Virus record (IMG/VR): IMGVR_UViG_3300025133_000028
From: a virus
Direction: 5' to 3' (one strand)
DNA: 64,000 nucleotides
In this document: positions 1 through 31,990 of the stretch, one piece after another
Layout of the letters: each line of letters begins with the position of its first letter
Numbering within the stretch: position 1 is the stretch's first letter
The notes under the pieces: model-generated
What the model saw: the letters and a program-made list of their open reading frames with translations, nothing else
What the model was told of the DNA's origin: nothing
The model's database searches: none
Program-made: the position numbers and the translations under genes

Positions 1-656
1 GTTGTGTTCGGGACGAAATCCTTAACATTCCTTCTAAAGATGTTGACTACTCTGTTGAGTGTATGTCTTTTAACCATATGCGAGAATCTATTTTAGGACG
101 TAATGGTGAAATCTTTTTGGAAACTCCAGAATACTTTACTATTCGTGCTAAAGTTCCTGGTTTGGGTGCATGTGACTTTGTTATGTGTCGAAAAGACGGA
201 GACTACTCGGACGGTAGACGACCAGATAAAGTAATTCATGGTACTCTTCTCGATGACTTAAAACGAAGAGACTTTACGATGAATGCAATTGCTAAATGTG
301 AGCAGGGTAATTTGATTGACCCTTTTAATGGTAAAAACGACATTGAACGTGGTGAAATTTGCCCTGTTGGGAATGCAAAAGACAGGTTTTGTGAAGACTC
401 GCTACGTATGATTCGTGCTATTCGATTTAGCATTACCAAAAACATGAATATGAACCCAGAAATTGTGCAGTGTCTGTTTAATTCTGAGTTGATTGCAAAA
501 TTAAAAAATGTTTCTGGTGAAAGAATTCGCGAAGAACTCCGAAAGTGTTTTAAGTTTAACACGATGAAAACGTTAGAAATGTTGCGGGATTTTCCAGAAC
601 TTTCTAATGCTATTTTTGAATGTGGTCTGTGGTTAGAGCCTACATTTAAAAGTTAG
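1..656 (+). CDS. cca: tRNA nucleotidyltransferase (CCA-adding / poly(A) polymerase family), 5'-partial, short head+neck form
   Basis: Frame is open from the window edge: CVRD...KDVD catalytic motif, DLKRRDFTMNAIA, DPFNG, EDSLRMIRAIRF (EDxxR), SGERIREEL. Confidence 0.9.
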   Translation, partial: CVRDEILNIPSKDVDYSVECMSFNHMRESILGRNGEIFLETPEYFTIRAKVPGLGACDFVMCRKDGDYSDGRRPDKVIHGTLLDDLKRRDFTMNAIAKCEQGNLIDPFNGKNDIERGEICPVGNAKDRFCEDSLRMIRAIRFSITKNMNMNPEIVQCLFNSELIAKLKNVSGERIREELRKCFKFNTMKTLEMLRDFPELSNAIFECGLWLEPTFKS

Positions 657-659
657 GAT

Positions 660-729
660 GGGGCGGGTGGTGGTTCCACAGTTAAGGCTTATATCCATGA
701 CTTCCTAGATTCAATTTCTAGTCGCCCTA
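660..729 (+). tRNA. atypical tRNA-Ile(UAU)-like gene
   Basis: Acceptor GGGGCGG/TCGCCCT, A73; D hairpin GTGG-TGGTT-CCAC abuts the acceptor; 7-bp anticodon stem with one mismatch, loop CTTATAT; T arm CTAGA-TTCAATT-TCTAG; no CCA. Confidence 0.7.
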
Positions 730-744
730 CTGAAAGGAAAAGAT

Positions 745-1056
745 ATGTTTAAAAATCTACTAATTTTGAGTGCGGGATTTATACTCTATTCTATGTGCGT
801 TTACGGGTCTTGTTTTATATCTGGTAATGGGTCAGAAGTTAAAGCTGGCGTGTCTAGTGTAGGTCACAAAATTTACGTTGATATTCCAGAGGTTAAAGAT
901 TTACCAGTAGAGCAAGAACCAAAACTGCTAGAAGACACCGAACAGTACTCAGAAATTCCGCAACCTCAAACAGAACAGGTACAAACATACGAATACACAA
1001 AGTATACAAGATATAGGAAAAGGTCTTGTGTTAGAAGACTACTTGGAAGACGTTAA
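745..1056 (+). CDS. hypothetical secreted/membrane-anchored protein
   Basis: AAGGA RBS; N-terminal hydrophobic signal-like segment; Arg-rich C-terminus. Confidence 0.65.
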   Translation: MFKNLLILSAGFILYSMCVYGSCFISGNGSEVKAGVSSVGHKIYVDIPEVKDLPVEQEPKLLEDTEQYSEIPQPQTEQVQTYEYTKYTRYRKRSCVRRLLGRR

Positions 1057-1057
1057 C

Positions 1058-1132
1058 GCGAGTGTAACTCAGTCTGGCCAGAGTAACTGACTTCCAATCA
1101 GACGGTCGCAGGTTCAAATCCTGTTACTCGCA
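1058..1132 (+). tRNA. tRNA-Gly(UCC)
   Basis: Canonical cloverleaf: GCGAGTG/TACTCGC, D stem ACTC/GAGT, loop CTTCCAA, T arm GCAGG-TTCAAAT-CCTGT; no CCA. Confidence 0.93.
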
Positions 1133-1136
1133 AAAA

Positions 1137-1226
1137 ATGGTAAAAACAGAAATAAAAAAATGCGACGTTCTTTGTGCTAACTGTCATTTTAAACATCATT
1201 ACAACGAAAAAGAGAAGGAAGACTAA
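1137..1226 (+). pseudogene. C-terminal remnant of an HNH endonuclease (29 aa)
   Basis: Translates MVKTEIKKCDVLCANCHFKHHYNEKEKED*, matching the EIxKCxVLCANCH tail of phage HNH proteins. Confidence 0.65.
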
Positions 1227-1290
1227 ATCTTCAGGGCGGAGAGAGAAATTGCAAATTTCTTGTCAGACGGTTCGACTCCGTTCCTTCTTT
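1212..1290 (+). tRNA. atypical tRNA-Cys(GCA)-like gene
   Basis: GAGAAGG/CCTTCTT acceptor, U73; anticodon arm AGAAA-TTGCAAA-TTTCT; T arm GACGG-TTCGACT-CCGTT; 9-nt instead of 2-nt acceptor-D connector. Confidence 0.65.
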
Positions 1291-1297
1291 CTGTCGT

Positions 1298-1360
1298 GCG
1301 GTTGTGGTATTATGGGACATTGCCGATGTTCAGACCGGAGTTCGATTCTCCGCAGCCGCA
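1298..1360 (+). tRNA. D-arm-less tRNA-Gly(GCC)-like gene (63 nt)
   Basis: GCGGTTG/CAGCCGC acceptor; 10-nt loop replaces the D arm; GGACA-TTGCCGA-TGTTC; CGGAG-TTCGATT-CTCCG. Confidence 0.75.
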
Positions 1361-1415
1361 CTGAAAGTCGCAATTATAATTGTAAACAATTGGAAAAACT
1401 AAAGGAGAAAGTTTA

Positions 1416-1946
1416 ATGGGAATGGTGAATGTTCGTACATTAGTCGCTGGTGATACTTTTGTACATAACGAAAAAGAATGGACAGTAAAACCGTCTGGTA
1501 GAGCTACTACAGAAGATGGCGATATGCTTATTGTTAGGCAAGAAAGTTTTGACGTATTTGTTAAGGACGATGTTATTAGCAAAGAAGACCCCTACGCAAG
1601 CGTAGAAAAAGACGAAAAGGTTGTAGAATATACGTTTCCTGATGACAACCATTATGTCGAATCTGTTACTTTACAAGAAGGCAAAGTGTGGGCTAATCAA
1701 AAAGACGCAGATAAAGTTCCAGAGTTTGATGAAGAAGCTGGACAAAAAGCATTAGAAGCTGTTGAAAATGGTGATTTTGTTACTGGTGAAGAACTTGAGC
1801 AAGAAGTTCAAAAAGCAGTAGAAGAAGGTTTTGCTCTAGTAGAAACTAGTGATGATTTAGACGTATCAAAAGACGATAATACCGATTCTGTAGAAGATGT
1901 AACAGAAGGAGATAGTAGTGACGAAAGCGACGAAGACGAAAATTAA
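1416..1946 (+). CDS. acidic hypothetical protein
   Basis: AAGGAG RBS; 176 aa, very D/E-rich C-terminus. Confidence 0.75.
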   Translation: MGMVNVRTLVAGDTFVHNEKEWTVKPSGRATTEDGDMLIVRQESFDVFVKDDVISKEDPYASVEKDEKVVEYTFPDDNHYVESVTLQEGKVWANQKDADKVPEFDEEAGQKALEAVENGDFVTGEELEQEVQKAVEEGFALVETSDDLDVSKDDNTDSVEDVTEGDSSDESDEDEN

Positions 1947-2220
1947 TCCAATGTCTGATTATGTAGCTGTTAAAATTGATACAGCAGAAACACATACTCC
2001 TGGTGGATTGGCCTTGCCTGCTAGTTCTCAAGACAAACCTCAAGTTGGAACAGTAGTTGCTATTGGTCCTGGTGCGTTACACGATGGAAAACGCGGGAAT
2101 ATGCAAGTTTGCGTAAAAGACAGAGTGTATGTTAATAAATACTCTGGTAATGAAGTAGAAGTTAATAATGAGACATTGCTTATTATCAGACAAAACGATA
2201 TTTTGTTAAGCTTGTCTTAA
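1918..2220 (+). CDS. groES: co-chaperonin GroES
   Basis: INPMSDYVAV, TPGGLALP mobile loop, GTVVAIGPG, KYSGNEV, IIRQNDIL; GTG start with AAGGAG. Confidence 0.93.
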   Translation: MTKATKTKINPMSDYVAVKIDTAETHTPGGLALPASSQDKPQVGTVVAIGPGALHDGKRGNMQVCVKDRVYVNKYSGNEVEVNNETLLIIRQNDILLSLS

Positions 2221-2227
2221 CTCGGCT

Positions 2228-2296
2228 GCTGGTGCGTCGTGGCGGCGACTTGTTCTTGTAAAACGAGTTTTTAGGATTCGATTTTCTACACCAGCT
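2228..2296 (+). tRNA. atypical tRNA-Thr(UGU)-like gene
   Basis: GCTGGTG/CACCAGC; D hairpin CGTCG-TGG-CGGCG abuts the acceptor; 6-bp anticodon stem CTTGTT/AACGAG, loop CTTGTAA; T arm TAGGA-TTCGATT-TTCTA. Confidence 0.72.
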
Positions 2297-2331
2297 TTTC
2301 CTAAAAAATTGGTATTTTATCAATTTTTTAG

Positions 2332-2360
2332 TTGTCAAACCGGCAAAAACCGTGTATACT
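2332..2360 (+). promoter_or_regulatory. sigma70-type promoter
   Basis: TTGTCA-N17-TATACT; predicted start ~2366-2367 coincides with the first hairpin RNA. Confidence 0.75.
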
Positions 2361-2366
2361 TTATTA

Positions 2367-2428
2367 GAGCAGTGAGGCAACGGGTTACTTCTCGAATTAG
2401 AAACCAACACCCATGCCAATGTACTCTC
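2367..2428 (+). ncRNA. Y RNA-like small RNA, copy 1
   Basis: Terminal helix GAG(C)AGT/ACTCTC with a single bulged C, then GGCA/TGCC and GGGT/ACCC helices; upstream of Ro60. Confidence 0.65.
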
Positions 2429-2444
2429 ATTTTATAGAAAAAAT

Positions 2445-2516
2445 TAGGCAGTGAACGAAACGGGTTACTTCAAAATTTTACCTTTTTAAGACCAAACCCT
2501 TTCATTAATTCTCCTA
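2445..2516 (+). ncRNA. Y RNA-like small RNA, copy 2
   Basis: TAGG(C)AG/CTCCTA bulged-C helix, GAAA/TTTC, GGGTT/AACCC; shares GCAGTGA and AACGGGTTACTTC with copy 1. Confidence 0.65.
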
Positions 2517-2528
2517 TTTTTATAGTAT

Positions 2529-2573
2529 GAGGGTTTACAACCAGATATTTCTGGTCTGTAGCCCTCTTTTTTT
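2529..2573 (+). terminator. intrinsic terminator-like hairpin between the small RNAs and Ro60
   Basis: GAGGG..TACAACCAGA-TATT-TCTGGT.TGTA.CCCTC followed by T7. Confidence 0.7.
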
Positions 2574-2595
2574 ATCTCTCGTAAGGAGTAGTGAA

Positions 2596-4179
2596 ATGCC
2601 AGTTAATCAAACACGACCAAAAAACAAAGTCAACAACCTAAATCCTCATACTAACCATATGAATGGTTTAAGTTTTGATATCTCAAATCCCCTACATAAC
2701 CTAAGTTGTGCAGCTTCTAGCTGTTTCTTCGGGGAACCACAATATTATTTCCCAACTAAAGATTCTCGTAAGAAATCTACCAAGATTCAAGTGCAAATGC
2801 ACACTCGTGGTCTGATAGAAGAATATTTAGACGCAATCACTCCATCTGAGTGGTATTACGACAATACTCCAGCTAAATTGCTTGAAAAAGCTATTGACAA
2901 AGCGTTAGACTGGAACCCAGAAGCTACCCTAACGGAAGCTGTGCGTTTGCGTAATAAGGAAAATATCAGAACCACACCACAAGTTATCTTGGTGCGTGCT
3001 GCTAATCACGTTAAGCTTAAAGGTACTGGATTGGTACGTAAATACGGAACAAATATTGTTAAAAGAGCAGACGAATTGTCTGTTTGTCTAGCATATCAGC
3101 TTCAGGCATACGGAAAACCAATTCCAAACTCTTTGAAAAAAGTACTACGTGATGGACTTGATAGGTTTACAGATTGCCAATTAGCTAAGTATCGTATGGA
3201 AAATCGTACTGTAAAAACAGTAGACGTAATGAACATGGTACACCCAAGTCGTACAGACAAAATCGACAAACTAGCTAAAGGTATGCTAAAAACCACAGGT
3301 AATACCTGGGAATCTATCCGTAGTAATGGTGGTAGCTGGGAAGATGCTATCGCTGTAATGGGACATATGGCTTTGTTAAGAAACTTGCGTAATTTTGGCA
3401 AGAACGAAGTAAATCCAGACCTATATTTGGACAAGTTGGTAAATACCACCGTTGGTGGAAAACAACTACCATTCAGATATTTTTCTGCGTATAACGCTTT
3501 GAAAGAAGCTGATTTTAACAACCCAAGAGTATTGGACGCTGTAGAAAACTGCTTAAACATTAGCATTTCTAACATTCCATCAATCAAGGGAAAAACTATG
3601 TCATTGTGTGATAATAGCGGGTCTGCACACGGAGCTATGACTTCTAGTGCTGGTACTATGACTATGGCTACCATTGGTAACCTAACTGGTGTTATTACCG
3701 GAATTATGGCAGATGAAGGTTATGTTGGTACTTTTGGTGATAGACTAGAAGTAACACCTATTCGTAAGAACTCTAGTGTGTTTGACCAACTAAAAACCGT
3801 TAATAAAACTGGACGCAGCGTTGGTGCTGCTACAGAAAATGGTGTGTGGTTATTTTGGGACAAAGCTATTAAAACCAAAGAACACTGGGACAATGTATTT
3901 ATCTACTCTGATATGCAAGCTGGTCACGGTGGATTGTATGGTTGTAACGCTAATGAATACTCAAATTATCAATGGGGTGGACGACATATCCACGTTCCTA
4001 AGTTAATTTCTGAATACAGAAACAAAGTTAACAAAAACGTTAACGTATTTTTGGTTCAAACTGCGGGTTACCAAGACACTATCGTTCCCGAATTTTACGA
4101 TAGAACTTACATCCTTGGTGGATGGGGTGATGGTATTTTACGTTTTGCGGCTACTATGATTGCGGCTAATAACCGATAG
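2596..4179 (+). CDS. rsr: Ro60/Rsr TROVE-domain RNA-binding protein with vWA domain
   Basis: MALLRNLRN and QLPFRYFSAY TROVE motifs; MIDAS DNSGS ... SDMQ; start placed at ATG 2596 after AAGGAG. Confidence 0.9.
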   Translation: MPVNQTRPKNKVNNLNPHTNHMNGLSFDISNPLHNLSCAASSCFFGEPQYYFPTKDSRKKSTKIQVQMHTRGLIEEYLDAITPSEWYYDNTPAKLLEKAIDKALDWNPEATLTEAVRLRNKENIRTTPQVILVRAANHVKLKGTGLVRKYGTNIVKRADELSVCLAYQLQAYGKPIPNSLKKVLRDGLDRFTDCQLAKYRMENRTVKTVDVMNMVHPSRTDKIDKLAKGMLKTTGNTWESIRSNGGSWEDAIAVMGHMALLRNLRNFGKNEVNPDLYLDKLVNTTVGGKQLPFRYFSAYNALKEADFNNPRVLDAVENCLNISISNIPSIKGKTMSLCDNSGSAHGAMTSSAGTMTMATIGNLTGVITGIMADEGYVGTFGDRLEVTPIRKNSSVFDQLKTVNKTGRSVGAATENGVWLFWDKAIKTKEHWDNVFIYSDMQAGHGGLYGCNANEYSNYQWGGRHIHVPKLISEYRNKVNKNVNVFLVQTAGYQDTIVPEFYDRTYILGGWGDGILRFAATMIAANNR

Positions 4180-4189
4180 GAGAATTATT

Positions 4190-4447
4190 ATGGCAACTTT
4201 GCAATGGAACAGACCAATACAACAAAAAGCTTTGTATTTTTCGGACATTCAAGTAAACGAGTCCTTTAAAATTACATCACCACACTCTCATGGAGCAGTC
4301 TACAGAAAAGTAGAAGACAGACATGGAAAAGGATTCTCTATGGAAGAAGCTACGGGTAAAATATATGACCCAACACCTTCTCCTATAGAACGAGTTGATG
4401 TAGAAGTTCATATTTGTAGGCCAAAACCGCAAATTAAAGGATATTAA
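4190..4447 (+). CDS. hypothetical protein
   Basis: AGGAG RBS before ATG 4190. Confidence 0.7.
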   Translation: MATLQWNRPIQQKALYFSDIQVNESFKITSPHSHGAVYRKVEDRHGKGFSMEEATGKIYDPTPSPIERVDVEVHICRPKPQIKGY

Positions 4448-4497
4448 AGAGTCAGGTCAGTTGTCGGTAAACTCCCGGTTATGAGGAACCGTCTTTT

Positions 4498-4568
4498 GCT
4501 TCTGTGGTGTAATGGTAACATAAAATCTTGGTACGATTTAGATTCGGTTTCGACTACCGACAGAAGAT
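4498..4568 (+). tRNA. tRNA-Thr(GGU)
   Basis: Cloverleaf with G1.A72 mismatch; D stem GTGT/ACAT; AAATC-TTGGTAC-GATTT; TCGGT-TTCGACT-ACCGA; no CCA. Confidence 0.8.
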
Positions 4569-4580
4569 TTAGGGATAATT

Positions 4581-4823
4581 ATGTGGGAAACAAGACAGTG
4601 TAACATGTGCCTATCGCACAACGAATTGTATATGGACAACCCACTGTGGATGGCATGGCAGTGTTGGAGTTGTCAAGACAACTATTGGCGTGATGAACAA
4701 ACTCATTATGACTACCTTATACTCCACGGTCTAACAGGAACGGAAGCTAATGCTAGAATAAATTCCGCCCACCATACTATATTTTTCCTTAATGGCAGTC
4801 CTGAAAGGACTGAAGACGTATGA
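4581..4823 (+). CDS. hypothetical protein, two CxxC motifs
   Basis: CNMC and CWSC; RBS present. Confidence 0.6.
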   Translation: MWETRQCNMCLSHNELYMDNPLWMAWQCWSCQDNYWRDEQTHYDYLILHGLTGTEANARINSAHHTIFFLNGSPERTEDV

Positions 4824-5023
4824 ACGAACATGAATTAATGAAACTCAAATTTGACGGTGGTTGGTATTACATGCAAATGTATGACGGAACTTTCGTTGTT
4901 GGGTATTTGTTAGACATGAAAACTGGCGTGTTTGGAATAATTTATTCAGTCGTGTGTGCTGACGATAAAACAATTGTGGATGTTGACCCCGAAGAAATAG
5001 AAAGTGTGATGCAACTTATTTAG
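4820..5023 (+). CDS. hypothetical protein
   Basis: ATGA overlap with upstream ORF. Confidence 0.55.
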   Translation: MNEHELMKLKFDGGWYYMQMYDGTFVVGYLLDMKTGVFGIIYSVVCADDKTIVDVDPEEIESVMQLI

Positions 5024-5058
5024 CTGGTTAACGCCAGCGTTTTTTATAGGATACTATA

Positions 5059-5868
5059 ATGCGCAGTCAACTAATAGTATGGAGTAAGGACAGAGCCTGT
5101 CAATTACACCTATTGCTTGAAAGTATTAAAACATATGTTCCAGACCATTTTGAAATTGATATTATATACACATGGTCTAACGAAAAATACAAAGAAGCAT
5201 ATGATAAGTTGATAAAAATATCTGATTCTCATATTCAATGGGTTATAGAAACTCGTGATTTACAGACAGAAACTGAATTTCTTATCAATCAAGAGAAAAA
5301 TAACCATATTTGCTTTAGCACAGACGATATGGTGTTTTGGCGAGAACCAGAAGGTTTGGCAAAATTGCCGGAATTTGACCACGAAGTTTTTTCTTACCGT
5401 TTAGGTCAAAACACAGTAGTTCAGGATTGTCACAGACGTACTTTCCAGCCTCCTTTATGCCAACCTCACAGAGTAGATTGTTACGTGGGTTGGGATATTC
5501 GCGGATATCATCCCTTGCATAATTACGGGTATCCACTTGCACTTGACACCCACGTTTTTACTAAGCGTAAGTTTCTTGAATTATCAGAAAGATTTGTCTG
5601 GAACAACACGAACTCCCTAGAAAGTGGTTTGCATAAATATTCAAACGAGACTTATATAATATATTCTTACGAAACCAGCACAGCGGTCAATATTCCGGCC
5701 AATAACATGAGTAGGATTACGATTGCTGGACAAGAATTCGGATATACAACCAGTTTTTTAAATGATTTGTTCCTTGAAGGAAAAAAGATTAGTCTTGCAG
5801 AAGTAAGTAAACAAAAAATTATTGGGTGTCATCAGGAAATGCCTTACGTGTTTATAGGGAGAAAATAA
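5059..5868 (+). CDS. putative GT-A-fold glycosyltransferase-like protein
   Basis: IVWSKDRACQLHLLLES N-terminus and FSTDD acidic motif. Confidence 0.5.
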   Translation: MRSQLIVWSKDRACQLHLLLESIKTYVPDHFEIDIIYTWSNEKYKEAYDKLIKISDSHIQWVIETRDLQTETEFLINQEKNNHICFSTDDMVFWREPEGLAKLPEFDHEVFSYRLGQNTVVQDCHRRTFQPPLCQPHRVDCYVGWDIRGYHPLHNYGYPLALDTHVFTKRKFLELSERFVWNNTNSLESGLHKYSNETYIIYSYETSTAVNIPANNMSRITIAGQEFGYTTSFLNDLFLEGKKISLAEVSKQKIIGCHQEMPYVFIGRK

Positions 5869-6167
5869 TGACAATGGATATCGAAGTAAAAGGTTCTCAT
5901 ACAGAAGAAAAACGAGTTAAAGCAAAGGATTGTTTTGGTGCTGATTACGGTGTTGTGTTTCAACAATATTTTCATGGTAAACCACAAAAAACGTACTTGA
6001 TTGGAACAGGACATGCAGACAGACCTATTAGTGTCTGGTGGGACGAAGAAGAAAAAGAATACAAAATCTCTTCAGAATCTAAAAAAGAACTAAAAGAATA
6101 TCTGCCCTGGGTCCAATTCAAAAAACTTCCTAATGCTCGTGTCAGACTGGAGTTAGACTGTGGATAG
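5868..6167 (+). CDS. hypothetical protein
   Basis: GGAG RBS; TAATG coupling to upstream gene. Confidence 0.65.
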   Translation: MTMDIEVKGSHTEEKRVKAKDCFGADYGVVFQQYFHGKPQKTYLIGTGHADRPISVWWDEEEKEYKISSESKKELKEYLPWVQFKKLPNARVRLELDCG

Positions 6168-24195: not shown

Positions 24196-26091
24196 ATGCC
24201 AAAATGGACCCCATTACACCTACATAGTTATTATTCGTTGCTTGATGGTCTACAGAGTCCAACGCAGATAGCTAGTAAATGTGAAGAGTATGGATATACA
24301 TCGTGTGCTATTACTGACCACGGAGTATTATCTGGGAGTGTTCAGTTTACACAAGCACTTAAAAAGAAAAACATAAAACCAATATTGGGTTGCGAATTCT
24401 ACCTTAGTAGTCAAGACCCAACGATTCAATCTCAAGAAAATAGAAAGCTATCTCACCTATGCCTTTTGGCTAAAAACAAAAAAGGTTGGTTACAGCTTAT
24501 TGCCGCGTCATCCCGAAGTAACGAAGATGACGTTTTTTATTATAAACCGCGATTAAGTCTTGATATGTTGGCACCCTACTGTGGTGACTTAATATCGTTT
24601 TCTGGTCATCCTGGCAGTGATATGTGTAACGTATTGTTTGATGGAAATCCGTATGCGTGTAAAACCGCAGATGAAGTAAGAAAAATACTACATCCAGACT
24701 GGAGAAAAAGAGCCGCAAGCTTAGCGAATAAATACCAAGACATATTTGGTAAAGGTAATTTTTTCCTTGAAGTACAATTAATTGACCAACACCAATTGCC
24801 AGTACAAATTGTCATAGCAGACTGTTTGAGACAGGTCGGTAAGGACACCGGAATTTTATGTGTGGCTACTGCTGATTCTCATTACACTAACAAAACAGAT
24901 ACTTTTGACCATCGTGTGATTTTGTGTTCTGGTTTAAAAACAACATTACCAAAAGTCAATTCTAAGTTAGCAGCCGGAAATGACGTTGGATTAGGAGGAT
25001 TCTTTAAAACAGACCAGTATCATATTCCTAGTCCTGACGAAATTGAAGCTATTAATACACAGGAAGAAATAGACAACACAGGCGTAATTGCTGGTATGTG
25101 CGAAGATTATGACATCCTTAGTAGACCAAGACTTCCTAAGTTTGAATGGACAGAAGGTATGTCAGAGTCTGGTTATGTGCGTCATTTGTGCAGAAAAGGT
25201 TGGACAAACAGAGTCTGTTCGGAGTGGGACCAAAATATCTATTCGGATAGAATCAAAAAAGAACTTGGCGTGTTTGACAAAGCCGACTTAAATGGGTATT
25301 TTTTAATTGTCCAAGACTACGTCAACGAAGCAAAAAATCGCGGCATTCTGGTCGGCCCTGGTCGTGGTAGTGGTGCTGGCTCACTAGCCGCTTATTTGTT
25401 AAACATTACAAACGTAGACCCTATCCCAGAAGGTTTGTTATTTGAAAGATTTTACAACGACGGTAGAAATACTGCCGAAAGAGTTTCATTGCCTGACTTT
25501 GATATTGATTTTCCTATTAAAGAAAGAGAGGAAATGATTGAATATGTCAAAGACAAATATGGTCATGATAGAGTTTGTCAAATGGTTACGTTTGGAAGAA
25601 TGCAAGGTAGAGGAGCAATCAAAGAAGTTTTAAGAGTACACGAAGCTTGTGGATATGATATCATGAATGATATTACCAGAAATATTCCACAAGAGCATAT
25701 AATTGATGACCAAATGAAAGCGTCTGGCGAAACATCAATTTTAAACTGGACACTTGAAAACGAGCCAGAAGCAATAGCTGACTTTTGCAGAAAAGAAGAC
25801 GACGGTACTTTGACTGGAGATTATGCTAGATACTTTGAACAGGCTATTAGATTAGAAGGAACTTATAAGACTCAAGGTAAACATGCTGCTGGTATCATTA
25901 TTGCTGCCGAACCTCTTGCTGGCATTTGTCCAATGGTTAGAGATAAAACAGGTGGTATGATTGCCGGTATGGATATGAACGACTTAGAAGAAATGGGACA
26001 CGTTAAGTTTGACTTTCTCGGAATCTCCTCCTTAAGTAAGCTGATGGCAGTAAATAACCTGTTAATGTATGGGAGAATTAACGTTGATTAA
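24196..26091 (+). CDS. dnaE: DNA polymerase III alpha, N-terminal half (PHP + catalytic palm)
   Basis: HLHSYYSLLDG, TDHG, GPGRGSGAGSL, LPDFDIDF, GKHAAG, KFDFLG then stop. Confidence 0.93.
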   Translation: MPKWTPLHLHSYYSLLDGLQSPTQIASKCEEYGYTSCAITDHGVLSGSVQFTQALKKKNIKPILGCEFYLSSQDPTIQSQENRKLSHLCLLAKNKKGWLQLIAASSRSNEDDVFYYKPRLSLDMLAPYCGDLISFSGHPGSDMCNVLFDGNPYACKTADEVRKILHPDWRKRAASLANKYQDIFGKGNFFLEVQLIDQHQLPVQIVIADCLRQVGKDTGILCVATADSHYTNKTDTFDHRVILCSGLKTTLPKVNSKLAAGNDVGLGGFFKTDQYHIPSPDEIEAINTQEEIDNTGVIAGMCEDYDILSRPRLPKFEWTEGMSESGYVRHLCRKGWTNRVCSEWDQNIYSDRIKKELGVFDKADLNGYFLIVQDYVNEAKNRGILVGPGRGSGAGSLAAYLLNITNVDPIPEGLLFERFYNDGRNTAERVSLPDFDIDFPIKEREEMIEYVKDKYGHDRVCQMVTFGRMQGRGAIKEVLRVHEACGYDIMNDITRNIPQEHIIDDQMKASGETSILNWTLENEPEAIADFCRKEDDGTLTGDYARYFEQAIRLEGTYKTQGKHAAGIIIAAEPLAGICPMVRDKTGGMIAGMDMNDLEEMGHVKFDFLGISSLSKLMAVNNLLMYGRINVD

Positions 26092-30181: not shown

Positions 30182-31990
30182 ATGACTGAATATTACGAAA
30201 TGTCGTGTGGTTGTAAGTTTCCGATTCAAGATGTTAAAAAAAGAGACAATTGTGATTCATTACCACCAATACAAATAGACTACGAAAATATTAGATATGA
30301 CTGTCCAGCTACTTGGGAACTCCTACAAAGCGGACAAACTAAAGGGGTCTTTCAATTAGAAACCAGACTTGGTCAAGGGTGGTCTAAAAAAATATCACCA
30401 GAAAATCTAGGTCACCTATCTGCTTTGGGTGCTTTGCTGCGTCCTGGTTGTTTGAAGTCTAAAATTTCTGGCAAGTCTATGACAGAACTATATGCAGATA
30501 GAAAAGCCGGATTAGAAAAGACAGAATATATCCACGAGTCATTAAAGTCTATATTGTCTTCGACACATGGTGTATTAACTTTTCAGGAGCAGGCTATGGC
30601 TATTGCTCAGAAACTAGCAGGGTTTAATCTACAAGAAGCTGATGTTTTGCGTAAAGCTATTGGTAAGAAAAAAGCCGATATTATGACGAAAGTTAAAAAA
30701 ACTTTCATGGACGGTTGTGCAAAAACTAAAGTAGTTCCTGTAGAAATTGCAGAACAGATTTTTGGCTGGATTCAAGAGTCACAAAAATATTCGTTCAATG
30801 CAAGCCATAGTTATTCGTATGGTATGATTGGCTACTGGACAGCTTATGCTAAAGCACATTTTCCACAACACTTTTTTACAGCATGGTTGTATTACGCTAA
30901 AGAAAAGATTGACCCGCACGCAGAGACCAAACAGTTAGTTGCTGATGCCAAAAATTTTGAAGTAGACATATGTCCTCCTTTGTTGGAGACAACAGAAAAA
31001 GGAGACCCTGGTGATTTTACTCTATATGAGAATAAAGTATACTTTGGTATTAGAAATGTTAAAAGAGTAGGCGATTCGCATATCAAAAAACTCCTTTCTC
31101 ACGTAGTGAGTAACGAAGAAGCATTAGACAAAGACATCAAAGATTTTAATTGGTATGAATTCCTGTGTTCTTTTGGTAGGCAAATCAACAAAAATACTAT
31201 CCAAGGTATCATGTCTGTCGGAGGGTTAGACGGACTTAATAAATCTAGAACTAGTATGTTATTTGAATATCATCTGTATACTAAATTAACTTCAAGAGAA
31301 AAAGAACTACTTAGTATACTAGGCGGATTTAGCCCAGAAGAAATCCAGGTAAAGGTTGATGGCGAATTATACGGTATAAACCCCGCAAGTCCTGATGTAA
31401 TCAATCAAATGAATATATTGGGTGTTAAAGCTGCTGCTAGGAAAAAAATTGCTTATGTGGCGGATTTATATAATTCTGACGAAAGATGCGACAATTTGCG
31501 AGACGGGTTGGTAATTTTATCTGAATGCGAGATAATATCTAAAAATAGACAAAATAAAATCGGTGAAATGATTATTTCTCTTGATGAACCTCCTCATTCC
31601 CTAGTTGATGATTCCAAATGGATAAATCGCACAGAGTCTGAACTTTTAGGTATTTCTATCACCTGTAGCAACCTAGATGTTGTTGACCAATCGTTTGCTG
31701 TTACTGCTACTTGTAAAGAATTTGTGGATGGACGTGTTGGACTAATGAGTTTAGGTGTAGAAATTAATGAAGTCAAAGAACACGTAATTAAAAAGAAGGG
31801 AAACATGGAAGGAATGACCATGGCGTTTTTGACCGTACAAGACGATTCGGGTGTGGTTGATTCTATTATTATGTTTCCAGATGCTTACGAAAGTTTTAAG
31901 CATTTATTATATCCAGAAAATACTGTCTTATTAGTCGGAGAGCGTTCTGACCGGGACTCTTTAATAGTAAAAAAGGTACGACAAATTTAA
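30182..31990 (+). CDS. dnaE: DNA polymerase III alpha, C-terminal half (fingers, HhH, OB)
   Basis: TKGVFQLE, LRPG, FQEQAM, ADVLRKAIGKKK, YSFNASHS, AKAHFP, MAFLTVQDDSG. Confidence 0.92.
   Translation: MTEYYEMSCGCKFPIQDVKKRDNCDSLPPIQIDYENIRYDCPATWELLQSGQTKGVFQLETRLGQGWSKKISPENLGHLSALGALLRPGCLKSKISGKSMTELYADRKAGLEKTEYIHESLKSILSSTHGVLTFQEQAMAIAQKLAGFNLQEADVLRKAIGKKKADIMTKVKKTFMDGCAKTKVVPVEIAEQIFGWIQESQKYSFNASHSYSYGMIGYWTAYAKAHFPQHFFTAWLYYAKEKIDPHAETKQLVADAKNFEVDICPPLLETTEKGDPGDFTLYENKVYFGIRNVKRVGDSHIKKLLSHVVSNEEALDKDIKDFNWYEFLCSFGRQINKNTIQGIMSVGGLDGLNKSRTSMLFEYHLYTKLTSREKELLSILGGFSPEEIQVKVDGELYGINPASPDVINQMNILGVKAAARKKIAYVADLYNSDERCDNLRDGLVILSECEIISKNRQNKIGEMIISLDEPPHSLVDDSKWINRTESELLGISITCSNLDVVDQSFAVTATCKEFVDGRVGLMSLGVEINEVKEHVIKKKGNMEGMTMAFLTVQDDSGVVDSIIMFPDAYESFKHLLYPENTVLLVGERSDRDSLIVKKVRQI

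What the first reader, a model, noticed from the sequence alone, without database searches (positions are those of the whole stretch)
1..4568. Phage RNA surveillance/repair locus: CCA enzyme + deviant tRNAs + Y-RNA-like pair + Ro60
Seen: within 4.6 kb are a CCA-adding enzyme, six CCA-less tRNA-like genes (four structurally abnormal), two bulged-C hairpin RNAs and a full Ro60/TROVE-vWA gene. Known: bacterial Rsr binds Y RNAs, tethers PNPase and often lies near RNA-repair genes; phage tRNAs can offset host anticodon nucleases. Inference: a self-contained module that matures, protects or uses tRNA mimics as decoys against tRNA-targeting defences. No RtcB is visible in this window.
Basis: partly seen in the sequence, partly recalled or inferred. 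Interest (0 to 1): 0.85.

Follow-up and report, generated by a model that had tools for sequence, protein, structure and literature searches.

The report
Phage Ro60 with two Y RNAs
An uncultured 164-kb phage carries the ring-shaped RNA-binding protein Ro60 and two small partner "Y RNAs" inside a partly decayed tRNA gene cluster. This partnership is already known from bacteria and phages; what is new is a variant docking stem that Rfam does not detect, and the idea that the odd tRNAs are decoys is not supported.

Summary
There is a 227-aa CCA-type nucleotidyltransferase, six CCA-less tRNA-like genes of which four are abnormal, two bulged hairpin RNAs, and a full Ro60 gene (TROVE plus vWA domains).

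The two hairpins are genuine Y RNAs. A covariance model built from relatives scores them at 59 and 55 bits, and nothing else in the 64-kb window matches. The model finds this family, always on the Ro60 strand, next to Ro60 in most related viral loci and in 63 of 72 bacterial loci. Its stems covary strongly: 92% of cells pair, against 61% after shuffling.

The handle reads closing stem, bulged base, AGUGA ... GGUUACUUC ... UCU. It lacks the published GNCGAA motif and matches no Rfam family.

Linkage of Ro60 to tRNA arrays is common (44 of 83 viral loci). Linkage to the CCA enzyme is not (0 of 83).

The "D-armless" tRNA-Gly is an 8-nt deletion allele of a normal tRNA that is intact in a 99%-identical strain. 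The compact tRNAs read the phage's favourite A-ending codons. The decoy or anti-defence reading is therefore unsupported.

Verdict: a known kind of module with a variant Y RNA handle. The scan found the same handle before on other phage DNA (e1-5336651, e1-5686866).

The parts
1..656 (+). Short (227 aa) class II tRNA nucleotidyltransferase (CCA-adding type). The gene starts 27 nt before the window. It has head and neck domains only, with no body or tail.
   Evidence: PF01743 at 79.5 bits. NCBIfam CCA equivalog PRK13299 at 139 bits, below its 290 cut-off, covering profile positions 24-209 of 396. Motifs read. phrog_24229 (245-position profile, tRNA nucleotidyltransferase) at E 2e-45. Homologues of the same length occur in 456 phage records.
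660..731 (+). Compact tRNA-like gene, anticodon UAU (Ile, AUA codon). No nucleotides at positions 8-9, 5-nt D loop, extended anticodon stem, 2-nt variable region, no encoded CCA.
   Evidence: Fold. Found by the descriptor scan. Not called by ARAGORN or Rfam.
1058..1132 (+). Canonical tRNA-Gly(UCC).
   Evidence: Rfam tRNA 63.5 bits and ARAGORN.
1140..1225 (+). C-terminal remnant of an HNH homing endonuclease (...KCDVLCANCHFKHHYNEKEKED*).
   Evidence: Sister strain L092 has a 1054-nt insertion at 1132/1133 with the full 154-aa ORF ending in the same residues.
1212..1290 (+). tRNA-Cys(GCA)-like element with a perfect acceptor and T arm but a degenerate D arm. Its 5' end overlaps the HNH remnant.
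   Evidence: Descriptor scan. ARAGORN calls it only at a lowered threshold. Rfam tRNA 19.4 bits, E 2.1.
1298..1360 (+). tRNA-Gly(GCC) lacking 8 nt of the D arm, a deletion allele.
   Evidence: 41.7 bits here. Strain L092 carries the intact 71-nt gene at 55.6 bits with an extra GTCGTATA at window position 1304.
1951..2220 (+). Cpn10/GroES co-chaperonin gene, a neighbour that is also next to Ro60 in relative L007.
   Evidence: PF00166 at 82.7 bits. L007 gene table.
2228..2296 (+). Compact tRNA-Thr(UGU): 3-nt D loop containing GG, 6-7 bp anticodon stem, 3-nt variable region, no encoded CCA.
   Evidence: ARAGORN. Fold. Not found by the Rfam tRNA model.
2332..2360 (+). Sigma-70-like promoter TTGTCA-17-TATACT that ends 4-6 nt before the first Y RNA stem.
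   Evidence: 10 of 12 consensus matches. The region's total count of such sites is not above shuffles, so this is weak evidence on its own.
2364..2431 (+). Y RNA U1 (short form). Order: P1 AGAG/CUCU, bulged C, AG, UGA, P2 GGCA/UGCC, P3 GGGU/ACCC, apical UUACUUC...
   Evidence: Model R1 at 59.1 bits, E 3e-11. Fold.
2443..2518 (+). Y RNA U2 (short form). Order: P1 UUAGG/CCUAU, bulged C, AG:CU, P2 GAAA/UUUC, P3 GGGU/ACCC, 3' UUCU.
   Evidence: Model R1 at 55.1 bits, E 3e-10. Fold.
2527..2575 (+). Intrinsic-terminator-like hairpin plus a U7 run, between the Y RNAs and the Ro60 ribosome-binding site.
   Evidence: RNAfold of 2362-2580. The simple terminator scan misses it because the stem is bulged. 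Relatives L006 and L009 show similar hairpin-plus-T runs after a Y RNA.
2596..4179 (+). Ro60 / Rsr-type protein (TROVE HEAT-repeat ring plus vWA domain with MIDAS), 527 aa, with AAGGAG 8 nt before the ATG.
   Evidence: The invariant residues H18 and N20 favour the 2596 start over the later start at Met22 that gives the 506-aa protein P0001.
4498..4568 (+). tRNA-Thr(GGU), near-canonical, with a G1-A72 mismatch and no encoded CCA.
   Evidence: Rfam tRNA 48.4 bits. ARAGORN.

Best explanation
The core is a phage-borne Ro60-Y RNA cassette. Two short Y RNAs (68 and 76 nt, of the YrlB/Yrn2 hairpin type, with no tRNA-like domain) are transcribed from their own promoter and mostly stopped at a terminator. 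The Ro60 gene follows and must be reached by read-through.

Shown here: the RNAs belong to a structured family that travels with this Ro60 clade in phages and bacteria. Phages therefore probably acquired RNA and protein together.

Inferred from D. radiodurans, Salmonella and Thermus phage phiLo: the conserved bulged helix (P1, bulged pyrimidine, AG:CU, UGA) docks on the Ro60 ring. The conserved apical part (UUACUUC plus an A-rich strand) recruits a host 3'-5' exonuclease such as PNPase. The particle then handles structured or misfolded RNA during infection.

The cassette sits in the phage's RNA-gene island. That island supplies tRNAs for A-ending codons and a minimal CCA-adding enzyme to finish them. 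The island is decaying through deletions and homing-endonuclease traffic, which explains part of the 'deviant' tRNAs.
For: Family and linkage.
- A shared motif lies upstream of Ro60 in relatives.
- RNAalifold gives 12 pairs, 11 with compensatory changes.
- Model R1 gives 90 hits over 718 kb, all on the Ro60 strand and mostly within 700 nt upstream. The window has exactly two hits.
- On A4, 92.3% of cells pair against 61.4% after shuffling and 46-53% when the partner is slid. The covariation score is 0.758 against 0.20.
- The same family lies upstream of Ro60 in 63 of 72 bacterial loci, including Sorangium, Polyangium, Chloroflexota and a Deinococcus.

Link to known Y RNAs. Long-form members carry a permuted tRNA-like core that hits Rfam YrlA at 34-43 bits. 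This ties the family to known Y RNAs.

Ro60 identity.

Published precedent.
- Y RNAs are encoded upstream of rsr on the same strand.
- They are co-transcribed with tRNA.
- Each studied species has a short hairpin Y RNA (PMC4201824).
- Phage phiLo Ro60 binds two upstream Yrl RNAs and host PNPase (PMC12135203).

tRNA side.
- The anticodons UAA, UCU, UAU, UCC and UGU match AGA at 50%, UUA 36%, ACA 39%, GGA 32% and AUA 29% of their codon families.
- No tRNA gene encodes CCA.
- Decay is shown by the sister strain.
Against: - No expression, binding or processing data exist for this phage.
- The published bacterial Rsr-binding motif GNCGAAN0-1G is not conserved in this family.
- No Rfam family, including YrlA and Y_RNA, matches the window copies even at E up to 10.
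- The promoter call is weak statistically.
- U1 has only a 3-4 bp closing stem and ACU instead of UCU.
- The host is unknown, so the codon-supplementation argument is indirect.
- PNPase recruitment is carried over from distant systems: the Ro60 here is 20% identical to phiLo's and 12% to Rsr in the structural alignments.
Confidence: 0.8

Rival explanations
1. First reader's reading. The 4.6 kb form one integrated anti-defence module in which deviant tRNAs act as decoys or protected substitutes against host tRNA-targeting nucleases. The CCA enzyme matures them and Ro60-Y RNA guards them.
For: - Four of six tRNA-like genes are structurally unusual yet keep perfect acceptor and T arms.
- Two of them (UAU, UGU) share the same compact design.
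- The genome also encodes Thg1-like, Rnl1-type and Rnl2-type ligases and a kinase, typical of phage tRNA repair sets (concept in PMC7824862).
- Ro60 sits in tRNA arrays in about half of related viral loci.
Against: - The D-armless tRNA-Gly is a recent 8-nt deletion allele.
- The Cys-like element borders a homing-endonuclease scar.
- The anticodons fit the phage's own codon usage, as ordinary supplementary tRNAs do.
- The set lacks Lys and Tyr, the best-known targets of PrrC, PARIS and retron-type nucleases (my own knowledge).
- cca is not linked to Ro60 in relatives.
- The repair genes are 30-40 kb away.
- The same Y RNA-Ro60 pair occurs in bacteria without tRNA arrays.
Confidence: 0.1
2. The two hairpins are not trans-acting RNAs. 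They form a cis-acting leader or attenuator of the Ro60 mRNA, for example for autoregulation by Ro60 binding its own 5' UTR.
For: They lie directly upstream on the same strand and are followed by a terminator. Only 20 nt then remain before the Ro60 start, with no room for a promoter, so Ro60 mRNA must contain them.
Against: - Family members also lie downstream of Ro60 or kilobases away (L022 5581 and 5665, L019 6946, L007 133 and 3441, L148 4149-4724).
- They occur in 1-4 copies interleaved with tRNAs and tRNA-like spacers.
- Some carry YrlA-type tRNA-like domains.
- Known Y RNAs have the same upstream, same-strand layout and are processed from precursors.

The two roles are not exclusive.
Confidence: 0.08
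3. Ro60-Y RNA in phages is specifically a quality-control device for the phage's own fast-evolving, often mis-shapen tRNAs. It binds and routes misfolded tRNA precursors to decay, which would explain its place in tRNA arrays.
For: - 309 tRNAs lie within 4 kb of Ro60 in 83 viral loci, nearly all on the same strand.
- Ro60 is known to bind misfolded small RNAs (PDB 2I91, 9NEP titles).
- This phage's tRNAs are visibly degenerate.
Against: - Co-location may only reflect shared transcription and processing. D. radiodurans Yrn2 is co-transcribed with a tRNA, and in L010 the Y RNAs abut tRNA-like spacers.
- 39 of 83 viral loci and most bacterial loci have no tRNA nearby.
- There is no functional data.
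Confidence: 0.2

Closest known systems
Bacterial Ro60 (Rsr) with Y RNAs: D. radiodurans Rsr-Yrn1/Yrn2, S. Typhimurium Rsr-YrlA/YrlB, M. smegmatis (Chen et al. 2014, PMC4201824)
   Same: - Ro60 gene with one or more small RNAs encoded just upstream on the same strand.
- 5' and 3' ends pair into a stem with a conserved bulged or internal-loop region.
- Short hairpin forms (YrlB/Yrn2 type) exist beside forms that carry a tRNA-like domain.
- Co-transcription with tRNAs.
   Different: - The conserved handle is AGUGA...GGUUACUUC...UCU, not GNCGAAN0-1G.
- The window copies have no tRNA-like domain.
- There is no rtcBA operon next to it.
- The Ro60 is very distant: 12% identity to Rsr in the structural alignment.
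Thermus phage phiLo Ro60 with Yrl1 and Yrl2 (PMC12135203; PDB 9KOP, 9L5Y)
   Same: A phage Ro60 with two Y RNA-like genes directly upstream. It is the best structural match of the model (TM 0.61-0.69) and the only PDB sequence match (E 6e-12).
   Different: About 20% identity. The phiLo RNAs were picked by a CGAA motif, whereas this family conserves another handle. The phiLo locus is not reported to lie inside a tRNA array.
Rfam YrlA (RF02553)
   Same: Long-form relatives of the window RNAs contain the permuted T arm, acceptor-like hairpin and D arm core. They hit the model at positions 24-84.
   Different: All hits are below the gathering score (34-43 bits against 69). The window's two RNAs give no hit at all.
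Short phage tRNA nucleotidyltransferases (phrog_24229), e.g. Arthrobacter phage Atuin gp178, Synechococcus phages B3, B23 and S-CBWM1, Cellulophaga phage phi17:2
   Same: About 230-240 aa, head plus neck only, 39-50% identical over the full length, and found in large tRNA-rich phages.
   Different: None of note. This is an ordinary member.
Phage RNA-repair gene sets as catalogued for jumbo phages (Iyer et al. 2021, PMC7824862)
   Same: The same inventory at genome level: tRNAs, Rnl1- and Rnl2-type ligases, kinase, Thg1, CCA-adding enzyme and a TROVE protein with a tRNA-like RNA partner.
   Different: Here the genes are spread over more than 40 kb and do not form one module. The genome is 164 kb, below jumbo size.

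Membership tests
Ro60 / Rsr (TROVE) proteins | TROVE (HEAT-repeat ring) domain | tested here: met
   PF05731 at 37.7 bits against a cut-off of 23. phrog_850 at E 2e-38. The AF2 model (pLDDT 79.7) has 13 top PDB matches that are all Ro60 proteins over the full length.
Ro60 / Rsr (TROVE) proteins | C-terminal vWA domain with MIDAS motif (DxSxS...T...D) | tested here: met
   D339-N-S341-G-S343, T413 and D439 are invariant in 22 relatives. Alpha/beta fold at residues 330-510. Weaker PDB matches to vWA domains.
Ro60 / Rsr (TROVE) proteins | Binds Y RNA on the ring's outer face and misfolded RNA in the central hole | not testable with these tools
   No RNA-protein modelling or binding assay is available here.
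Y RNAs (bacterial/phage YrlA, YrlB, Yrn type) | Encoded within about 2 kb of Ro60 on the same strand | tested here: met
   U1 and U2 end 165 and 78 nt before the Ro60 ATG. All 90 viral and 75 bacterial model hits are on the Ro60 strand.
Y RNAs (bacterial/phage YrlA, YrlB, Yrn type) | 5' and 3' ends pair into a stem that holds a conserved bulged helix | tested here: met
   14 modelled pairs, 13 with changes on both sides, 92.3% of cells paired. Bulged base at column 9, then A:U and G:C pairs at 83-100% conservation.
Y RNAs (bacterial/phage YrlA, YrlB, Yrn type) | GNCGAAN0-1G motif near the 5' end (Chen et al. 2014) | tested here: not met
   The family conserves AGUGA there, and the following 6-8 nt vary. 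U2 holds ACGAAAC and U1 GGCAAC, neither an exact match.
Y RNAs (bacterial/phage YrlA, YrlB, Yrn type) | Bound and stabilised by Ro60 | not testable with these tools
   Needs RIP, EMSA or Northern blots in a Ro60 mutant.
Rfam YrlA (RF02553) | Score at or above the gathering threshold (69 bits); permuted tRNA-like domain | tested here: not met
   No hit in window 1-5200 at E up to 10. The window copies are 68 and 76 nt with no T or D arm.
Class II CCA-adding enzymes | Head domain with GGxVRD and DxD, motif B RRD, motif D EDxxR in the neck | tested here: met
   GGCVRD, DVD, RRDFTMNA and EDSLRMIRAIRF are present and align to 1MIV residues 23-202.
Class II CCA-adding enzymes | Body and tail domains that hold the tRNA (about 400 aa in all); NCBIfam equivalog cut-off | tested here: not met
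   The protein ends at residue 227 and the next 4 nt start a tRNA-like gene. PRK13299 scores 139 bits against a cut-off of 290. It is nevertheless a full-length member of the short phage family phrog_24229.
Canonical elongator tRNA | Cloverleaf with a standard D arm, nucleotides 8-9 and 26, 5-bp anticodon stem; detected by the Rfam tRNA model | tested here: inconclusive
   - Met by 1058-1132 and 4498-4568.
- 1298-1360 passes the score (41.7 bits) but lacks 8 nt of the D arm.
- 660-731 and 2228-2296 are missed by Rfam, although they keep a 7-nt anticodon loop with U33 and A37, GG in the D loop and a standard T loop.
- 1212-1290 scores 19 bits.

The most novel reading that the evidence does not exclude
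The AGUGA/GGUUACUUC-handle RNAs are an undescribed, widespread class of Y RNA. They are the missing partners of the Ro60 clade of Myxococcota, Chloroflexota and large phages, groups where Chen et al. 2014 found few YrlA RNAs. In phages this particle would be functionally coupled to the tRNA array, for example as quality control of the phage's own deviant tRNAs or as a shield or repair platform against host tRNA nucleases, rather than merely co-transcribed with it.
Probability: 0.15. Interest if true: 0.65.

Novelty: new variant of a known kind. Interest (0 to 1): 0.35.

Why it matters
Ro60-Y RNA particles are well studied in animals because Ro60 is an autoantigen, and in a few bacteria. Their role in phages is still open.

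- This locus adds a clean, minimal example: two 70-nt RNAs plus the protein.
- The comparison gives a testable definition of the docking stem for a large Ro60 clade that current RNA catalogues miss.
- It also gives a caution. Odd-looking phage tRNAs can be fresh deletion alleles and homing-endonuclease scars rather than designed mimics.
- The practical gain is a covariance model and a short list of mutants for binding tests. It is not a new kind of system.

Tried and rejected
- DNA similarity of window 1-6000 to 50,697 phage records found only tRNA-Gly-sized matches, so there is no cultured close relative. DNA polymerase is at most 36% identical to known phages, so host and taxon stay unknown.
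- A single-protein scan of viral contigs with Ro60 found nothing. The alignment-based scan worked.
- Rfam at permissive thresholds gave no Y RNA family for the window. There is a weak, unexplained hit to Enterococcus sRNA_1300 (24 bits against 48.8) across both units plus the terminator.
- Folding energy alone does not single out the hairpins or the compact tRNAs (z between -0.5 and -1.7). Comparative evidence was needed.
- I considered that the compact tRNA at 2228-2296 might be a detached tRNA-like domain of the Y RNAs or a processing spacer, as in L010 where tRNA-like spacers abut Y RNAs within 1-5 nt. Here it lies 67 nt upstream with a promoter-like site in between, so I do not claim this.
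- I looked for conserved protein neighbours of Ro60. Only two small ORFs recur, each in a single relative.
- A resemblance between AGUGA...GUUACUUC and the upper-stem sequence of human Y RNAs comes from memory only. Rfam Y_RNA gave no hit, so it is not used.
- The supplementary tables of Chen et al. 2014 are not held. I could not check whether any member of this family, such as phage G, was already listed there.

Full report
**Setting.** The window is bases 63,997-127,996 of a 163,651-bp IMG/VR virus record judged complete. The genome has 36.6% G+C. No cultured phage is close to it. Three short metagenome contigs carry the same locus. Two are identical and one, L092, is 99% identical.

**What is in 1-4568.**
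- *CCA enzyme.* It is a 227-aa ORF that starts 27 nt before the window. It has the catalytic head and the nucleotide-selecting neck of class II CCA-adding enzymes: GGCVRD, DVD, RRDFTMNA and EDSLRMIRAIRF. It aligns to residues 23-202 of the 404-aa Bacillus enzyme and lacks the body and tail. It is a normal member of a short phage family, phrog_24229, with homologues in 456 phage records, and is about 230-240 aa where checked, as in large tRNA-rich phages.
- *tRNA-like genes.* A strict descriptor (T arm with a TTCRA loop plus a perfect 7-bp acceptor) finds six elements in the whole genome. All are on the + strand and all lie in window 660-4567. Shuffled genomes give 0.1. None encodes CCA.
- *Ro60.* The protein (2596-4179) has a TROVE hit, an invariant MIDAS motif, and a predicted structure whose 13 best PDB matches are all Ro60 proteins.

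**The two hairpins are Y RNAs of a conserved family.**
- Both copies share GCAGUGA...ACGGGUUACUUC and fold with a bulged C.
- The nearest Ro60 proteins are 55-65% identical. They come from phage-like contigs, Myxococcota and Chloroflexota.
- In those loci the motif [A/G]GUGA-N5-10-GUUACUU recurs 1-4 times on the Ro60 strand, mostly 100-650 nt upstream of Ro60. It appears in almost every locus whose Ro60 is at least 50% identical.
- Each copy closes with a 3' NCU followed by the complement of the bases that precede the bulge.
- RNAalifold on 19 short forms gives 12 pairs, 11 of them with compensatory changes.

A covariance model, R1, was then searched over the window plus 73 other sources: 70 viral Ro60 loci, two phage-genome loci, and L004, which re-reads the window's own genome (718 kb in all). 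It returned 90 hits, two of them the L004 copies of U1 and U2. Every hit is on the Ro60 strand, and the window's only two hits are U1 (59.1 bits) and U2 (55.1 bits).

On the resulting alignment 92.3% of cells pair. Shuffling gives 61.4%, and sliding the 3' partner gives 46-53%. Thirteen of 14 pairs change on both sides. That alignment is fitted to the model and so leans towards it. The slide control and the independent RNAalifold result argue the structure is real.

The same model hits just upstream of Ro60 in 63 of 72 bacterial loci, including Sorangium, Polyangium, Chloroflexota and a Deinococcus. RNA and protein therefore travel together across bacteria and phages.

**Anatomy of the family.**
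- A variable closing stem.
- One bulged base.
- An A:U and a G:C pair (G 100%, C 96%).
- UGA.
- Two short covarying helices.
- An invariant UUACUUC that opens the apical part.
- An A-rich 3' strand, then U-C-U and the closing strand.

Of 88 distinct hits, 59 are short (95 nt or less, like the window's two). The other 29 are long. Where inspected, the long forms carry in the apical part a permuted tRNA-like core that gives sub-threshold Rfam YrlA hits. This ties the family to known Y RNAs.

The family still fails two membership tests. The published GNCGAAN0-1G motif is not what is conserved, and no Rfam family reaches threshold. The window copies give no hit at all. Chen et al. 2014 noted that few YrlA RNAs were found in delta-proteobacteria and that variant Y RNAs were to be expected. 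I found no paper describing this handle.

**Transcription unit.** A TTGTCA-17-TATACT site ends 4-6 nt before U1. A bulged hairpin followed by U7 comes after U2 and ends 20 nt before the Ro60 ATG, whose AAGGAG lies in between. Ro60 can therefore only be expressed by read-through. This would set an excess of Y RNA over Ro60 mRNA. That is an inference, and the promoter call alone is not statistically strong.

**The tRNAs.**
- Gly(UCC) and Thr(GGU) are canonical or nearly so.
- The "D-armless" Gly(GCC) is an allele with 8 nt deleted. Strain L092 has the intact 71-nt gene, scoring 55.6 bits against 41.7 here.
- The same strain has a 1054-nt insertion right after tRNA-Gly(UCC) that carries a full HNH endonuclease. 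The window keeps only its last 22 codons, which overlap the 5' end of the Cys-like element. Sequence divergence is concentrated on both flanks of this insertion. I read this as recombination around a homing endonuclease.
- The two compact tRNAs (UAU, UGU) keep U33, A37, GG in the D loop and standard T loops.
- Together with the upstream Leu(UAA), Arg(UCU) and Gly(UCC), they read AGA (50% of Arg codons), UUA (36%), ACA (39%), GGA (32%) and AUA (29%). This is the usual pattern of codon supplementation. The host is unknown, so this is an inference.

**Linkage.**
- Forty-four of 83 viral Ro60 loci have a tRNA within 4 kb, and 31 have three or more. Of the 309 tRNAs, all but three are on the Ro60 strand.
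- In L010 the Y RNAs alternate with tRNA-like spacers that abut them within 1-5 nt and lack decoder features. This suggests release by tRNA-processing enzymes.
- By contrast, no CCA-enzyme homologue lies within 4 kb of Ro60 in any of the 83 loci. Only 1 of 5 near-complete relatives has one, and it is about 150 kb away.
- The genome has no RtcB. It does have a Thg1-like gene next to an Rnl2-type ligase, and a kinase next to an Rnl1-type ligase, 30-40 kb upstream. This matches the inventory described for large phages (PMC7824862).

**Verdict.**
- The Ro60-Y RNA particle in a tRNA island is real and conserved.
- The 4.6 kb are not a conserved self-contained module.
- The decoy idea has evidence against it and none for it.

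The mechanism (Y RNA docking on Ro60 and tethering a host exonuclease) is inferred from D. radiodurans, Salmonella and phage phiLo. It was not tested here.

The scan has met the same handle in two other phages (e1-5336651, e1-5686866), and Ro60-like proteins with other handles in many more. Those notes agree with this reading but are not independent evidence.

Noticed in passing
window 1132/1133 and 1140-1225; L092 2103-3156: A 99%-identical strain carries a 1054-nt insertion after tRNA-Gly(UCC) with a full 154-aa HNH endonuclease and small ORFs. The window keeps only the C-terminal remnant. Differences between the strains cluster in tRNA-Gly(UCC) (1067-1126) and in 1304-1414, on the two sides of the insertion.
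   Followed up: partly
window 729-737 and 1360-1367: Two tRNA-like genes (660-731 and 1298-1360) are followed by the same trailer, A-CUGAAAG. This may be a shared 3' processing signal or a trace of duplication.
   Followed up: no
L010 3291-3926: Order in a related phage: tRNA-Gly, Y RNA, tRNA-like spacer, Y RNA, long Y RNA, tRNA-like spacer, Y RNA, Ro60. The gaps are 1-5 nt. The spacers have C33 or C37, or a 'Leu' anticodon without the long variable arm, so they look like processing punctuation rather than decoders.
   Followed up: partly
genome 22359-24153 and 31436-33031 (L088, L090; before the window): A Thg1-like gene lies next to an Rnl2-type RNA ligase, and an AAA_33 kinase next to an Rnl1-type RNA ligase. 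Together they form a tRNA-repair toolkit away from the Ro60 locus.
   Followed up: partly
window 24196-26091 and 30182-31990: The DNA polymerase (phrog_405) is split into two ORFs about 4 kb apart, with other genes in between.
   Followed up: no
L006 1314-1386; L007 4044-4116: Related Ro60-bearing phage contigs carry a tRNA with anticodon CUA (an amber suppressor type) close to Ro60.
   Followed up: no
window 2380-2575: A weak hit to Rfam sRNA_1300 of Enterococcus (24.4 bits, E 0.017) spans both Y RNAs and the terminator. I could not tell whether that sRNA is itself a Y-like RNA.
   Followed up: no
L067, L069, L072, L074-L076, L082: Giant-virus metagenome bins (GVMAG) encode Ro60 relatives at 31-34% identity. 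Three of them have weak hits of model R1 just upstream (E 0.002-0.1).
   Followed up: no
L001 (Bacillus phage G) 1779-3815: Six copies of a sister handle, GAAGCGG-N6-CAGUUACUUC, fill the 1-kb 'empty' gap before gp540 (Ro60, 41% identical) and one gap further upstream. Only the first carries a tRNA-like core.
   Followed up: partly
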